Assembly: GCF_988242995.1 (NCBI RefSeq)
Contig: NZ_OZ547043.1
Direction: 5' to 3' (one strand)
Length of the DNA: 64,000 nucleotides
Position numbers: made by a program
Part shown: piece by piece, positions 15,001 to 18,000 of the stretch
How the letters are laid out: the number at the start of each line of letters is the position of its first letter
How positions within the stretch are numbered: the first letter of the stretch is position 1

Positions 15001-18000
15001 TATTGTTGAACAGGGCCAGCCACTGGCGCAGCTTAACCGCACCAAAACGGAATCCGACGTCCAGGAAGCAATGTCGCGGCTGTACGCGGCGCTGGCAACC
15101 TCGGCGCGGCTGCGGGCGGAAGTGAGTAATAAACCGCTGGTCTTCCCTGACGAACTGAATAAATTCCCCGAACTTATCGAGTCGGAAACGGCGTTGTACA
15201 ACACTCGCCGCGATGGGCTGAACAAAGCCACCACCGGGCTGACGCAGGGGATTAGCCTGGTCAACCGCGAACTGGCGATGACCCAGCCGCTGGTAAAACA
15301 GGGGGCGGCGAGCAGCGTTGAAGTGCTGCGCCTGCAACGCCAGGCCAATGAACTGGAAAACAAACTCAGCGACGTGCGCACGCAATACTACGTTCAGGCG
15401 CGCGAAGAGTTAGCAAAAGCCAATGCGGAAGTGGAAACCCAGCGTTCGGTGATCCGTGGACGGGAAGACTCCCTCACCCGGCTCAACTTTACCGCGCCGG
15501 TACGTGGCATTGTTCAGGACATTGACGTCACCACGGTTGGCGGCGTTATTGCCCCCGGTGGTAAACTGATGACCATCGTGCCGCTGGATGAGCAACTGCT
15601 GATCGAGGCAAAAATCTCCCCGCGCGATGTGGCGTTTATCCATCCGGGGCAAAAATCGCTGGTGAAAATAACCGCCTACGATTACTCCATCTACGGCGGC
15701 CTGCCGGGAGAAGTGGCGGTGATATCACCAGACACCGTGCAGGATGAAGTACGGCGCGATGTTTATTACTATCGGGTGTACATTCGCACTTTCAGCAACC
15801 ATCTGGAAAACAAAAGCAAACAGCAATTTCCGATATTTCCCGGCATGGTGGCGACGGTCGATATCCGCACCGGCAAAAAAAGCGTGCTGGATTATCTGTT
15901 GAAACCCTTTAATAAAGCACAGGAGGCGTTGCGCGAACGATGAACATTAGCGATGTAGCAAAAATTACCGGCCTGACCAGCAAAGCAATCCGCTTCTATG
16001 AAGAGAAGGGGCTGGTGACGCCGCCGATGCGTAGCGAAAATGGTTATCGAACCTACACGCAGCAGCATCTCAACGAACTGACCTTACTGCGCCAGGCGCG
16101 CCAGGTGGGCTTTAACCTGGAAGAGAGCGGCGAACTGGTGAATCTGTTTAACGACCCGCAGCGTCACAGCGCCGATGTAAAACGGCGCACCCTGGAGAAA
16201 GTGGCGGAGATCGAACGACACATTGAGGAGCTGCAATCCATGCGCAACCAGCTGTTGGCGCTGGCGAATGCCTGCCCTGGCGATGACAGCGCCGACTGCC
16301 CGATTATCGAAAATCTCTCCGGCTGCTGTCATCATCGGGCGGGGTGAAAATCAGTTAATCCCCGTTTGCACCGAAAGAATATGCTGCAAACTTTCTACCA
16401 TTATGCGCCCCGATTGAAATAAGCCTTCCTGGATTTCATTGTTAACATTCACAGCGTGAACCAGGGAGGCTAATAACACCACTTGCAAGAAGGCAAAAAT
16501 AAACGCACCGATAATCATAATATGCGTCAGGGGGATTTTCCTTTGCTCTTTCATTTTAAATAACCCACAAACTGACCTTCCTTCATTAAGGCGACTTTTC
16601 CCGTGTGGTGATAAACAATGACGTTATAAAGACCTGACTGATAAACAGTGGCATCTTTATTGTCTTCATCAATTGCACATAATGAATCATTGAGATAAGC
16701 AAAGTTCTTACTGCTCATTCTAAAGGTCATGCCAAATCCTTTATAAATAGATTTTTTAGCGGCCTGGGCATGTTGTGCGGCTTCTGCATTTTTAAATGCC
16801 TGCGCTTCTGATGCACTTAAAATAGCCGCCTGACGCTGTTGTTCTGCGAGATAACAGGTGTCATGGCTGACGCCCTGCGCCTGGCAATCTGCGATGCGGG
16901 AAGTGGGTGAACTACAGCCAGCCAGTAATATAACCGCCAGCAGGGAAAACGATTTAATGGAGCTATTCATCATTGTTAACCTTAAATAATGTACGGAAAA
17001 TTGCGAATAAGAAATTGCTGTTAAAATTAGAACGAATATCCCACGCCGACACCCGCACCGAAATCAGATTGTGTATCCGCAGAAATACCTGCTTTAAGTA
17101 CCGTATGCGTTCCGGCATTAAAAGATGTTCCTACAGACACCGCAGATTCACCGTTGTACGTTCCCGCTCCCGCTGACACCATCATCAAGTCACCGGTTTT
17201 CACCTGTGGTTGTGAGGCGATAGCGATGGCAGATGCAGTTCCCGCATTGGCTTCTTTACGATTGTCCTCAACTTCGTTTTTCAGAGAATCGAAATGGTTA
17301 TTGAGCGTGTTAATTTGTTGGCTGTTATCTGCGACCCGTTTTTGCGTGTTGGTTAACTGTTGCTGCGTTTGTGCGGAATCTTGTCTCAGACTTTCAATTT
17401 GCTCATGTGCCTGGACAGACTTCTGCGCCAGACTTTGCATTTGTTTATCGTATTGAGCCCTTTCTTTTTGCTGTTGTGCTGCCACATCGGTTGTCAGTGC
17501 ATTCATTTTCTGCCCTTGTTCCGTGGCAGTGCGCTGATTAGCCTCATTTTGAGCCGCCAGTCTGGCATTAATCATCTCCTGATAATGCGCAGTATTTTGC
17601 GTATCTCCAGTCGCGGCGAGCGTTTTTTGTGTGGCTACGATCTGCGCCTGTTGCTCTGTAATTTGCGTTTGCTGGGCATCAGTTACCGCAGACTGTCGGG
17701 CGTTGATCATGCTCTGATAACGGGCGGTTGTCTGTACATCACCTGTAGCGGCAACGGTTTTTTGTCCTGCGTCAGGATCTGTCTGGACAGTGGGAGTCTG
17801 AGTGGTATCAGGTGTTTCAGAAGGGATGTAGTGATGTTCAGTCAAATAGGTATACGCAGCGGGGCTGTTGTCTGTGCGTTCTAAAAAGCGGGTAATCTTC
17901 TGCTCAATCTCCGATTGCGACATGCCAGAGTTAATGGCTGAAAGCTCTGTTGCCGCCGCTTCAATGGTATCACCAGCTAAAACAACAGGGCTGGATGTTG

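What the first reader, a model, noticed from the sequence alone, without database searches (positions are those of the whole stretch)
17495..17766. Two tandem ~132-bp repeats within the TAA-like stalk
This is an internal duplication (QKTVAATGDVQTTARYQSMINAR… / QKTLAATGDTQNTAHYQEMINAR…). Stalk repeat copy number commonly varies in trimeric autotransporters and alters surface reach.
Basis: seen in the sequence. Interest (0 to 1): 0.3.

Follow-up and report, generated by a model that had tools for sequence, protein, structure and literature searches.

The report
Old duplicated module in adhesin stalk
The two repeats are real, but they are an ancient 45-amino-acid duplication in the stalk of a small E. 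coli surface protein, fixed at two copies in this gene version; the same gene has, oddly, been published as a transcription factor (GmrA).

Summary
The gene at 17027-18043 (- strand, 338 aa) carries two adjacent 45-aa (135-nt, not 132) units: aa 94-138 (17630-17764) and aa 139-183 (17495-17629). Identity is 25/45 aa, 17/23 in the first half, z=17 against shuffles.

At DNA level they are only 57% identical. Third codon positions match 16/45, the longest shared word is 8 nt, and Tandem Repeats Finder reports nothing. This is an old duplication kept by protein-level selection, not a slippage-prone array.

The protein has a signal peptide, a helical stalk and a YadA-type anchor, so it is a trimeric-autotransporter-like protein. 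It lies in E. coli O-island 29, between cueR and ybbJ.

Each unit is a conserved motif (KTVAATGDxQxxA[RH]YQxM[IV][ND]A[RK]) followed by a spacer that varies in 7-residue steps (38/45/52 aa). Relatives carry 1, 2 or 3 copies.

In about 1030 complete E. coli genomes with this allele, the region shows no evidence of length variation.

Side finding: published primers show that this gene is z0639/gmrA, reported as a cytoplasmic transcriptional activator of fliA. That conflicts with its secretion signal and outer-membrane anchor.

The parts
17027..18043 (-). Gene for a 338-aa YadA-anchor (trimeric-autotransporter-like) protein. It is z0639 / ECs0548 / 'gmrA' of E. coli O-island 29. The stop codon is 17027-17029.
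   Evidence: ORF. Pfam YadA_anchor. RefSeq annotation 'YadA family autotransporter adhesin'. The published gmrA primers flank and prime exactly this CDS.
17975..18043 (-). Predicted Sec signal peptide, aa 1-23 (MKTVNVALLALIISATSSPVVLA|GD).
   Evidence: Read directly from the sequence: a basic N-terminus, a 12-14-residue hydrophobic core and a V-L-A cleavage motif. No dedicated predictor was available. AlphaFold pLDDT is ~30 here.
17819..17974 (-). Small conserved N-terminal helical domain (aa 24-75). It matches no known head-domain family.
   Evidence: Conserved in short and long alleles. AlphaFold places helices at 27-31, 43-56 and 61-69 with pLDDT ~76. No Pfam or NCBIfam hit.
17765..17818 (-). 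Pro/Thr-rich linker (aa 76-93). Long alleles carry their extra ~125-aa module at this point.
   Evidence: Alignments. pLDDT <50 for aa 75-103. DNA similarity between the short and long alleles starts at gene nt 280-283, which is the first codon of unit 1.
17630..17764 (-). Repeat unit 1 (aa 94-138), the 'rep1 type'. The conserved motif QKTVAATGDVQTTARYQSMINAR lies at 17696-17764. The variable Gln/Ala-rich spacer lies at 17630-17695.
   Evidence: Unit HMM match at aa 90-137, E=2.4e-23.
17495..17629 (-). Repeat unit 2 (aa 139-183), the 'rep2 type'. The conserved motif QKTLAATGDTQNTAHYQEMINAR lies at 17561-17629. The spacer lies at 17495-17560.
   Evidence: Unit HMM match at aa 134-182, E=3.5e-24. 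AlphaFold breaks the helix at G146-D147.
17210..17494 (-). Anchor-proximal heptad coiled-coil stalk (aa 184-278).
   Evidence: Hydrophobicity periodicity of 3.50 residues, power 67.6 against a null of 29.8 +/- 10.9, with 0.6% of shuffles reaching it. Continuous helix, pLDDT above 90 for aa 201-260. It is also the only confident part of the three-chain model.
17030..17209 (-). YadA-like membrane anchor (aa 279-338), ending in GVGYSF.
   Evidence: Pfam PF03895: E=2.7e-12, 47 bits against a cut-off of 22.7, covering profile positions 1-60 of 60. PDB sequence hits: AtaA 2.6e-7, Hia 1.6e-6, YadA 0.012.
16551..16973 (-). Downstream 140-aa lipoprotein gene (z0638), probably in the same operon.
   Evidence: ORF with the lipobox LLAGC. 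Annotated 'lipoprotein' in O157. Kept next to the adhesin gene in other Escherichia species. The z0638 knock-out primers map here.
16351..16554 (-). 67-aa predicted small membrane protein. Its start codon overlaps the stop of the lipoprotein gene by 4 nt.
   Evidence: Conserved alongside the other genes.
18410..18772 (+). Divergently transcribed 120-aa gene (z0640), the fourth gene of the conserved cassette.
   Evidence: Only a weak match to the MqsA-antitoxin helix-turn-helix region (E=0.081).

Best explanation
The two units are an ancient tandem duplication of a family-specific stalk module in a small, head-less protein of the trimeric-autotransporter type.

Each module has two parts. The first is a conserved ~23-30-aa motif, K-T-[VIL]-x-A-x-G-D-x-x-x-x-x-[RH]-Y-Q-x-M-x-x-A-[RK]. 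The second is a Gln/Ala/Thr-rich helical spacer whose length changes only in heptad steps, giving units of 38, 45 or 52 aa.

Shown here:
- The duplication predates the split of all Escherichia alleles. The rep1 and rep2 types are each conserved across alleles.
- Both copies are under purifying selection at protein level while synonymous sites have diverged.
- This allele is fixed at two copies.

Inferred:
- In the trimer, the modules form helical stalk segments joined by a short non-helical G-D connector. Each 45-aa unit would add about 6-7 nm (1.5 A per helical residue).
- Together they would hold the small N-terminal domain away from the anchor-proximal coiled coil and the outer membrane.
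- Copy number changes only by rare unequal recombination soon after a fresh duplication, as in the 3-copy alleles. It does not change by ongoing slippage.
For: Protein identity:
- YadA anchor, and a stalk with heptad periodicity next to it.

The repeat is real:
- z=17 against shuffles.

The duplication is old and selected:
- Nucleotide identity 57%, third codon positions 16/45, and 16 of 25 conserved residues use different codons.
- All 7 differences between the window and the O157 allele inside the repeat region fall on third codon positions. Over the whole gene the split by codon position is 7/6/28.

The two unit types are orthologous across alleles:
- 84% identity within the rep1 type, 76% within the rep2 type, 58% between the types.

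Module behaviour:
- Spacings between successive motifs are 52 (72 cases), 38 (34) and 45 (24), that is, heptad steps.
- Copy number is 1, 2 or 3.
- The 3-copy alleles have younger DNA repeats: 156 nt x 2.4 copies at 91% matches, and 114 nt x 2.5 copies at 88%.

Stability here:
- 1028 of 1030 genomes hold the stretch essentially whole, and 39/39 sampled rows measure exactly 391 nt. 43/43 sampled full-length genes measure exactly 1017 nt.

Structure prediction:
- AlphaFold with an alignment gives a helix over aa 101-145, a break at G146-D147 and a helix over aa 148-277, with pLDDT 70-84 in the repeats.
- The break at the second G-D recurs in all three chains of the linked construct.

A distinct module:
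- A profile of the repeat region matches only 11 of 1.84 billion representative proteins at E<=0.001. The three full-length distant matches (P0147, P0152, P0153) each have a YadA-type C-terminus and carry 1 or 2 copies.
Against: - The repeat region shows no significant hydrophobic periodicity (peak at 3.2 residues; 42% of shuffles do as well), so a canonical coiled coil there is not demonstrated.
- The three-chain AlphaFold model has pLDDT <50 over the repeats and did not form the barrel.
- No solved structure resembles the unit.
- Strong conservation of the motif half could mean a binding site rather than a structural joint.
- Trimerisation, surface exposure and any effect of unit number were not tested.
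- A published study reports that deleting OI-29 does not change adherence to HeLa or Caco-2 cells, and it assigns this protein a cytoplasmic DNA-binding role.
Confidence: 0.75

Rival explanations
1. A contingency-type tandem array. The two 135-nt units would be a hot spot for slipped-strand mispairing or unequal crossing-over, so isolates would differ in copy number and stalk length.
For: The related adhesin Saa on pO113 has a 111-nt unit in 4.8 copies at 99% nt identity. saa genes are reported to vary in size through the number of such units (PMC4060028). Within this family, 459- and 497-aa alleles differ by one 38-aa unit, and E. ruysiae has three 52-aa units.
Against: In this allele the units share 57% nt identity and no word longer than 8 nt, and TRF reports nothing. 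1028 of 1030 genomes hold the region essentially whole, and every sampled row has the same length. The small indels among close relatives (2-13 aa) are scattered singletons, mostly from metagenome assemblies, and none equals a unit.
Confidence: 0.05
2. The conserved motif is a ligand-binding or self-association site, comparable to the immunoglobulin-binding stretches in the coiled-coil stalks of Eib proteins. Duplication would then raise avidity rather than length.
For: The motif half is far better conserved than the spacer half, both between the two units and across distant relatives: A11, G13, D14, Y21, Q22, M24, A27 and A31 are invariant in 12 units. The protein has no recognisable head domain that could carry binding. 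The repeat region lacks a coiled-coil-like hydrophobic periodicity. The Eib comparison is from my own knowledge and was not tested here.
Against: No ligand is known. Deleting OI-29 did not change adherence to HeLa or Caco-2 cells. A conserved G-D followed by the start of a helix is also what a structural joint would look like. The unit has no similarity to any solved binding domain.
Confidence: 0.15
3. The protein is what the literature says: GmrA, a cytoplasmic transcriptional activator that binds the fliA promoter. The helical repeat region would then be part of a DNA-binding or dimerisation domain rather than an adhesin stalk.
For: Yang et al. 2018 (PMC5826968) report loss of motility and flagella in the gmrA deletion, complementation by gmrA alone, and EMSA and ChIP-qPCR at the fliA promoter. 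Their primers prove that gmrA is this gene.
Against: The sequence starts with a typical signal peptide and ends with a full-length YadA membrane anchor scoring well above Pfam's threshold. It is homologous to solved autotransporter anchors. No DNA-binding family reaches significance. The only such name is a sub-threshold coiled-coil match, TMF_DNA_bd (E=0.36, 11 bits against a cut-off of 35). All relatives are annotated as adhesins.
Confidence: 0.05

Closest known systems
Saa, the STEC autoagglutinating adhesin of plasmid pO113 (ECs0548 was listed as 'Saa-like protein' by Ogura et al. 2007, PMC2323221)
   Same: Both have a signal peptide, a helical stalk with tandem repeats just upstream of the anchor, and a YadA-type anchor. 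The last ~140 aa align at 32% identity, E=7e-12.
   Different: Saa has a large N-terminal passenger region. Its repeat is 37 aa / 111 nt, in 4.8 copies at 99% nt identity, and is reported to vary in number between strains. The two repeat sequences are unrelated: BLASTP does not align them, and the unit HMM gives no hit in Saa at E<=10. Here there are 2 copies at 57% nt identity, fixed in this allele.
YadA / Hia / AtaA / EibD-type trimeric autotransporter adhesins (type Vc secretion)
   Same: A C-terminal YadA_anchor domain preceded by a heptad coiled coil.
   Different: No head, neck or other catalogued passenger domain was detected, only a ~50-aa helical N-terminal domain. The 45-aa module matches no Pfam family and no solved structure. 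At 338 aa the protein is very short for the class (my own knowledge).
GmrA / Z0639 of O-island 29 (Yang et al. 2018, Front Microbiol 9:338, PMC5826968)
   Same: It is the same gene. The knock-out arms flank the CDS exactly in O157 (L001 3721-3758 and 4776-4814 around CDS 3759-4775). The cloning primer begins ATGAAAACTGTAAACGTAGCTTTA (MKTVNVAL), and the FLAG primer ends on the codons for ...GVGYSF.
   Different: The paper describes a hypothetical protein with a predicted DNA-binding domain acting in the cytoplasm on the fliA promoter. The sequence analysis here finds a secreted, outer-membrane-anchored architecture and no significant DNA-binding family.
Beta-layer 'nonad' connectors in coiled-coil stalks (Hartmann et al. 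2016, eLife 5:e11861, PMC4786415)
   Same: V-A-A-T-G-D-V-Q-T can be written as a-b-c-b1-b2-b3-e-f-g. In that register there is an aliphatic residue at a, a small residue at b2 and an invariant Asp at b3, the helix N-cap position. It puts the conserved Y and I/V on core positions downstream. AlphaFold breaks or starts a helix at the G-D.
   Different: Position e is V/T/A/P, not K/R, and position g is T/N/S/V, not D/E/Q. The b2 residue is Gly rather than Ala/Val. No trimer structure supports it. This is a resemblance only.

Membership tests
Trimeric autotransporter adhesin (type Vc, YadA family) | C-terminal YadA-like membrane anchor domain | tested here: met
   Pfam PF03895: E=2.7e-12, 47 bits against a cut-off of 22.7, aa 279-338, covering profile positions 1-60 of 60. 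PDB anchors: AtaA 2.6e-7, Hia 1.6e-6, YadA 0.012.
Trimeric autotransporter adhesin (type Vc, YadA family) | N-terminal signal peptide for Sec export | tested here: met
   By inspection only: MK, then a hydrophobic core VNVALLALIISA, then VLA|G. No signal-peptide predictor was available.
Trimeric autotransporter adhesin (type Vc, YadA family) | Coiled-coil stalk leading into the anchor | tested here: met
   aa 184-278 have a 3.5-residue periodicity reached by only 0.6% of shuffles. Continuous helix with pLDDT above 90 for aa 201-260.
Trimeric autotransporter adhesin (type Vc, YadA family) | Obligate homotrimer forming a 12-stranded barrel, with a surface-exposed passenger | not testable with these tools
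   The single-chain model with three linked copies did not form the barrel (mean pLDDT 42.7). This needs biochemistry or a multimer prediction.
Trimeric autotransporter adhesin (type Vc, YadA family) | Adhesive head domain or demonstrated adhesion | tested here: not met
   No head or neck family in Pfam or NCBIfam. The published OI-29 deletion adhered normally to HeLa and Caco-2 cells. The anchor, not the head, defines the family, so this lowers 'adhesin', not 'autotransporter'.
Saa-type variable tandem repeat array | Near-identical head-to-tail DNA units | tested here: not met
   57% nt identity, not detected by TRF. Saa has 99% identity over 4.8 copies.
Saa-type variable tandem repeat array | Copy number differs between isolates | tested here: not met
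   1028 of 1030 genomes hold the region essentially whole, and all sampled rows have identical length. Met only at family depth, with 1-3 copies.
Saa-type variable tandem repeat array | Repeat sequence homologous to the Saa 37-aa unit | tested here: not met
   BLASTP aligns only the C-terminal 140 aa. The unit HMM finds nothing in Saa at E<=10.
Beta-layer (nonad) connector of coiled coils | Register a-b-c-b1-b2-b3-e-f-g with b3 = D/N/T/S and a small b2 | tested here: inconclusive
   D is invariant, and G is invariant at b2 where A/V is typical. b1 is T/L/M/I (rules).
Beta-layer (nonad) connector of coiled coils | Position g = D/E/Q and position e = K/R (the capping network) | tested here: not met
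   e is V/T/A/P and g is T/N/S/V in the 12 aligned units (compared).
Beta-layer (nonad) connector of coiled coils | Three residues in beta conformation crossing the trimer axis | not testable with these tools
   The only evidence is a 2-residue helix break at G146-D147 in single-chain models.
GmrA transcriptional activator (as published) | Same gene as z0639/gmrA | tested here: met
   Primer mapping.
GmrA transcriptional activator (as published) | A recognisable DNA-binding domain | tested here: not met
   No significant DNA-binding family in Pfam or NCBIfam. The only candidate is TMF_DNA_bd, a coiled-coil match at E=0.36 and 11.3 bits against a cut-off of 35. The paper's figure S3B could not be seen.
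GmrA transcriptional activator (as published) | Cytoplasmic location and direct promoter binding in vivo | not testable with these tools
   The sequence argues for export and outer-membrane insertion. The paper reports EMSA and ChIP.

The most novel reading that the evidence does not exclude
An outer-membrane, trimeric-autotransporter-type protein with a previously undescribed stalk module (a G-D joint followed by an R-Y-Q-x-M helix start, in 1-3 copies with heptad-stepped spacers) is the true product of 'gmrA'. On this reading, the reported control of fliA and flagella is an indirect surface-to-motility signal, or an artefact, rather than direct DNA binding. The duplicated stalk would then belong to a surface device that couples envelope or adhesion state to motility.
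Probability: 0.25. Interest if true: 0.6.

Novelty: new member of a known kind. Interest (0 to 1): 0.3.

Why it matters
As a repeat, this is ordinary. It shows that not every internal repeat in an adhesin stalk is a length-variation switch. The useful discriminator is DNA identity between the units: 57% here, 84-91% in the 3-copy alleles and 99% in Saa.

Two things go a little further. First, the unit is a compact module restricted to a few Enterobacteriaceae proteins and absent from Pfam and the PDB, and its spacer changes in heptad steps. That makes it a tidy natural series for studying how fibrous stalks tolerate insertions.

Second, the gene carrying it is cited in reviews of E. coli O157:H7 as a horizontally acquired transcription factor for flagella. 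Its sequence says signal peptide plus outer-membrane anchor. That discrepancy deserves an experimental check, because it affects how O-island 29 is interpreted.

Tried and rejected
- **Tandem Repeats Finder and the repeat finder on the gene.** Neither finds a 135-nt family. That result is itself informative.
- **Pentadecad hypothesis.** I tested whether 45 aa = 3 x 15-residue repeats forming a YadA-like right-handed coiled coil. It was rejected: there is no power at 3.75 residues and no significant periodicity at all in aa 94-183.
- **Degenerate third unit around Y198.** Sliding-window scores of 31-34 sit within the null of 27 +/- 5, and there is no HMM hit at E<=10.
- **Word-indexed protein search with the repeat region alone.** It returned only 10 fragmentary Escherichia proteins from 17 candidates, which was uninformative.
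- **Two tblastn scans of plasmids, meant to pull out Saa.** The listed rows were dominated by Burkholderia anchor matches. Saa was obtained instead by walking pO113.
- **Three stalk-plus-anchor copies joined by 110-residue Gly/Ser linkers, folded as one chain to mimic the trimer.** Mean pLDDT was 42.7, the barrel was not formed and the repeats were below 50, so it is inconclusive.
- **PDB searches.** A profile search with the unit gave nothing. Searches with the neighbouring lipoprotein and the 120-aa protein gave nothing meaningful.
- **Antisense ORF 17360-17884 (+ strand).** Dismissed, because substitutions between alleles follow the codon positions of the - strand frame (7/6/28).
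Full report
**Where we are.** The window is E. coli chromosome. The stretch between cueR (15940-16347) and ybbJ (18957-19415) holds four extra genes, all annotated in RefSeq:
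- a 67-aa protein;
- a 140-aa lipoprotein;
- a 338-aa 'YadA family autotransporter adhesin', on the - strand at 17027-18043;
- a divergent 120-aa protein.

Only about a quarter of complete E. coli genomes have this insert. In 1315 of 5426 genomes one place covers at least 80% of the 2.2-kb query; nearly all the others match only the 48 nt of cueR. It corresponds to O-island 29 of O157:H7, a 2,643-bp island containing z0638, z0639 and z0640.

**The observation.** The finding's coordinates (17495-17766) fall in the middle of the 338-aa gene. Translating the - strand gives two adjacent units:
- aa 94-138: QKTVAATGDVQTTARYQSMINARQSAVTDAQQTQITEQQAQIVAT
- aa 139-183: QKTLAATGDTQNTAHYQEMINARLAAQNEANQRTATEQGQKMNAL

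The period is 45 aa, or 135 nt, not ~132. In window coordinates the units are 17630-17764 and 17495-17629. Identity is 25/45 aa, with 17/23 in the first half, and 77/135 nt.

The similarity is far beyond chance. The protein local score is 115 against 27 +/- 5 in shuffles (z=17), and the DNA local score gives z=16.8. No other part of the protein resembles the units.

**What kind of repeat it is.** As DNA it is a poor repeat:
- Tandem Repeats Finder reports nothing in the gene even at minimum score 30.
- No 135-nt-spaced family appears in the repeat finder.
- The longest shared exact word is 8 nt.
- Matches by codon position are 30, 31 and 16 of 45.
- 16 of the 25 conserved residues use different codons.

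This is the signature of an old duplication whose protein sequence has been maintained. It is not a recently generated or homogenised array.

Between the window and the O157:H7 allele, the gene differs at 7, 6 and 28 first, second and third codon positions. All seven differences inside the repeat region are at third positions. So the - strand frame is the one under selection, and the antisense ORF at 17360-17884 can be ignored.

**The protein.** Reading from the N-terminus:
- **aa 1-23:** a typical signal peptide (inspection).
- **aa 24-75:** a small helical domain with no family match.
- **aa 76-93:** a Pro/Thr-rich linker.
- **aa 94-183:** the two units.
- **aa 184-278:** a stalk with a clear 3.5-residue hydrophobic periodicity, reached by only 0.6% of shuffles. 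AlphaFold models it as an uninterrupted helix, with pLDDT above 90 for aa 201-260.
- **aa 279-338:** a full-length YadA membrane anchor. Pfam gives E=2.7e-12, and the PDB search hits the AtaA, Hia and YadA anchors.

The defining features of a trimeric autotransporter that can be tested by sequence are therefore met. No head domain is detectable.

**The family and the behaviour of the module.** A database search found 315 relatives, of which the best 120 are listed. Every source name in that list is Escherichia, and lengths run from 338 to 586 aa.
- The N-terminal domain and the C-terminal ~200 aa are conserved in all of them.
- The middle is modular.
- DNA similarity between the short and long E. 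coli alleles begins at gene nt 280-283, the first codon of unit 1.
- Long alleles carry an extra ~125-aa module upstream, which is itself duplicated in the 577-586-aa forms.

Both units are present in all full-length listed relatives, and they form two orthologous types. Rep1 has R-Y-Q-S-M...A-R-Q; rep2 has H-Y-Q-E-M...A-R-L-x-A-Q-N. Identity is 84% within the rep1 type, 76% within the rep2 type, and 58% between the types. The duplication therefore predates the diversification of the locus across Escherichia species. In those species the same four-gene cassette sits at the same cueR-ybbJ site.

The spacing between successive motifs is 52 aa (72 cases), 38 aa (34 cases) or 45 aa (24 cases). These are steps of exactly one heptad, confined to the Gln-rich second half of the unit.

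Copy number by a unit HMM is 1, 2 or 3 in 23, 125 and 7 full-length proteins. The 3-copy alleles carry an extra rep1-type unit that is young at DNA level:
- 156 nt x 2.4 copies at 91% matches in E. ruysiae;
- 114 nt x 2.5 copies at 88% matches in a cryptic-clade genome.

A profile of the repeat region, scored against 1.84 billion representative proteins, matched only 11 at E<=0.001. The three full-length distant matches each end in a YadA-type C-terminus:
- P0152, 363 aa, whose cluster includes Enterobacteriaceae bacterium FGI 57: 1 copy;
- P0153, 475 aa, from metagenome-type sources (Logan, ENA): 1 copy;
- P0147, 397 aa, E. coli: 2 copies.

Across 12 units from all of these, A11, G13, D14, Y21, Q22, M24, A27 and A31 are invariant. 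The unit has no relative among solved structures and no Pfam family.

**Testing the copy-number idea directly.** The gene is present in 1414 of 5426 complete genomes, and 1029 of them carry the short allele at 95% nt identity or better. All 43 sampled full-length rows measure exactly 1017 nt.

An in-silico amplicon across the repeats (17435-17825, 391 nt) gave these results:
- It matched 1030 genomes.
- 1028 hold at least 80% of it in a single place. Loss of a unit would leave only 65%.
- There are 1031 places in 1030 records, so extra copies are not accumulating.
- All 39 sampled full-length rows measure 391 nt.

The exception I inspected is a strain in which a deletion from the purK side has removed the 5' half of the gene. 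Close relatives with small in-frame indels (2-13 aa) exist, mostly as singletons from metagenome assemblies. They are scattered along the stalk and none equals a unit.

For contrast, Saa on plasmid pO113 is the adhesin to which this gene's O157 Sakai orthologue (ECs0548) was likened as 'Saa-like'. It has a 111-nt unit in 4.8 copies at 99% identity, and is reported to vary in unit number between strains. Its repeat is not related to this one.

**How it probably works.** AlphaFold with a 30-sequence alignment predicts:
- a helix that starts at G101;
- a continuous run to residue 145;
- a break at G146-D147;
- a resumed helix to residue 277, with pLDDT 70-84 over the units.

The break at the second G-D recurs in all three chains of a linked three-copy construct, although that model is otherwise of low confidence.

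The repeat region lacks a significant hydrophobic periodicity. My first idea, three 15-residue repeats per unit, is therefore rejected.

The nonamer V-A-A-T-G-D-V-Q-T can be read as the a-b-c-b1-b2-b3-e-f-g register of a beta-layer connector (Hartmann et al. 2016). It has the invariant Asp at the N-capping position. However, positions e and g do not carry the residues that form the published capping network. This remains a resemblance, not a membership.

My best reading (confidence 0.75) is that each unit is a helical stalk segment with a short conserved joint at its start. Two such segments would add roughly 13 nm to the fibre (an inference from helix geometry). The number of segments changes only through rare duplication events, not through ongoing slippage. 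A binding role for the conserved motif cannot be excluded (confidence 0.15).

**What is known about the gene.** Ogura et al. 2007 list ECs0548 as 'Saa-like protein'.

More strikingly, Yang et al. 2018 named z0639 'GmrA' and described it as a transcriptional activator that binds the fliA promoter. Their supplementary primers settle the identity:
- The knock-out arms lie at L001 3721-3758 and 4776-4814, immediately flanking the adhesin CDS at 3759-4775.
- The corresponding sites in the window are 16989-17026 and 18044-18082.
- The expression primer starts ATGAAAACTGTAAACGTAGCTTTA, which encodes MKTVNVAL.
- The FLAG primer ends on the codons for GVGYSF.

A protein with a signal peptide and a YadA anchor is an unlikely cytoplasmic DNA-binding protein. 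No DNA-binding family reaches significance here. The only one named is TMF_DNA_bd, a coiled-coil match at E=0.36. It may be the kind of hit behind the paper's 'putative DNA-binding domain'; that is my inference, since the figure was not available.

The genetics in the paper (loss of flagella, complementation by this gene alone) may well be real but indirect. I could not test that.

**Verdict.** The repeat is real and correctly located. It is an old, selected duplication of a family-specific stalk module in a small protein of the trimeric-autotransporter type. Copy number varies in the wider family but not in this allele. As a finding it is ordinary. The conflict with the published function of the gene is the more interesting by-product.

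Noticed in passing
window 17027-18043 (- strand); L001 3759-4775: This gene is z0639/'gmrA', published as a cytoplasmic transcriptional activator of fliA (PMC5826968). The paper's knock-out, cloning and FLAG primers match the CDS ends exactly. The sequence, however, has a signal peptide and a YadA outer-membrane anchor, and no significant DNA-binding domain.
   Followed up: partly
window 18044-18409 (intergenic, between the adhesin gene and the divergent 120-aa gene): The motif AAGAAACA / TGTTTCTT recurs here. There is a perfect 10-nt inverted repeat, ATAAGAAACA-N5-TGTTTCTTAT, at 18203-18227. There is also a 34-nt direct repeat (18084-18117 and 18203-18236, 79% identical) and further copies near 18297 and 18355. 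They look like operator sites for an unidentified regulator of the divergent promoters.
   Followed up: no
window 16351-16973 (- strand): A 140-aa lipoprotein (z0638) and a 67-aa small membrane protein lie directly downstream of the adhesin gene. Their coding regions overlap by 4 nt. The pair is kept together with the adhesin gene in E. ruysiae and cryptic-clade genomes (L007, L009). Helper lipoproteins for trimeric autotransporters are known (SadB, from my own knowledge), but no sequence similarity to any solved structure was found.
   Followed up: partly
window 17762-17764 (gene nt 280-283); alignment A1; protein P0012: The boundary between the short and long allele classes falls on the first codon of repeat unit 1. 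A 345-aa protein (P0012) combines the short allele's N-terminus with the long allele's stalk. This suggests recombination at the start of the repeat region.
   Followed up: partly
window 12-12605 (+ strand), then 12609-15943: An open reading frame of more than 4197 aa runs in from the window's left edge. It is followed by a type I secretion ABC transporter and a HlyD-type adaptor. The frame is unbroken over its whole length inside this window, whereas the homologous RTX-like exoprotein is described as frameshifted in O157:H7 and EAEC 042 (PMC2808357).
   Followed up: no
window 19678-19774 (inside qmcA, - strand gene 19412-20329): TRF reports a 33-nt unit in 2.9 copies at 72% matches. It corresponds to the ILKAEGE(K/R)QS repeats in the C-terminal helical part of the SPFH protein QmcA.
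   Followed up: no
L011 (E. coli IR53017, NZ_CP064103.1 3851129-3854314): In this strain a deletion joins a purE/purK remnant directly to the middle of the adhesin gene. It removes the 5' half of the gene, including unit 1, and the gene is annotated as a pseudogene.
   Followed up: yes
L002 3760-4809 and L003 5071-6120 (long alleles in RefSeq): RefSeq calls a 349-aa 'YadA-like family protein' here. It starts at an internal TTG and has no signal peptide, although related full-length proteins of 457-471 aa exist. About 730-1100 nt upstream are left unannotated. This suggests mis-called starts or disrupted genes in some long-allele strains.
   Followed up: no
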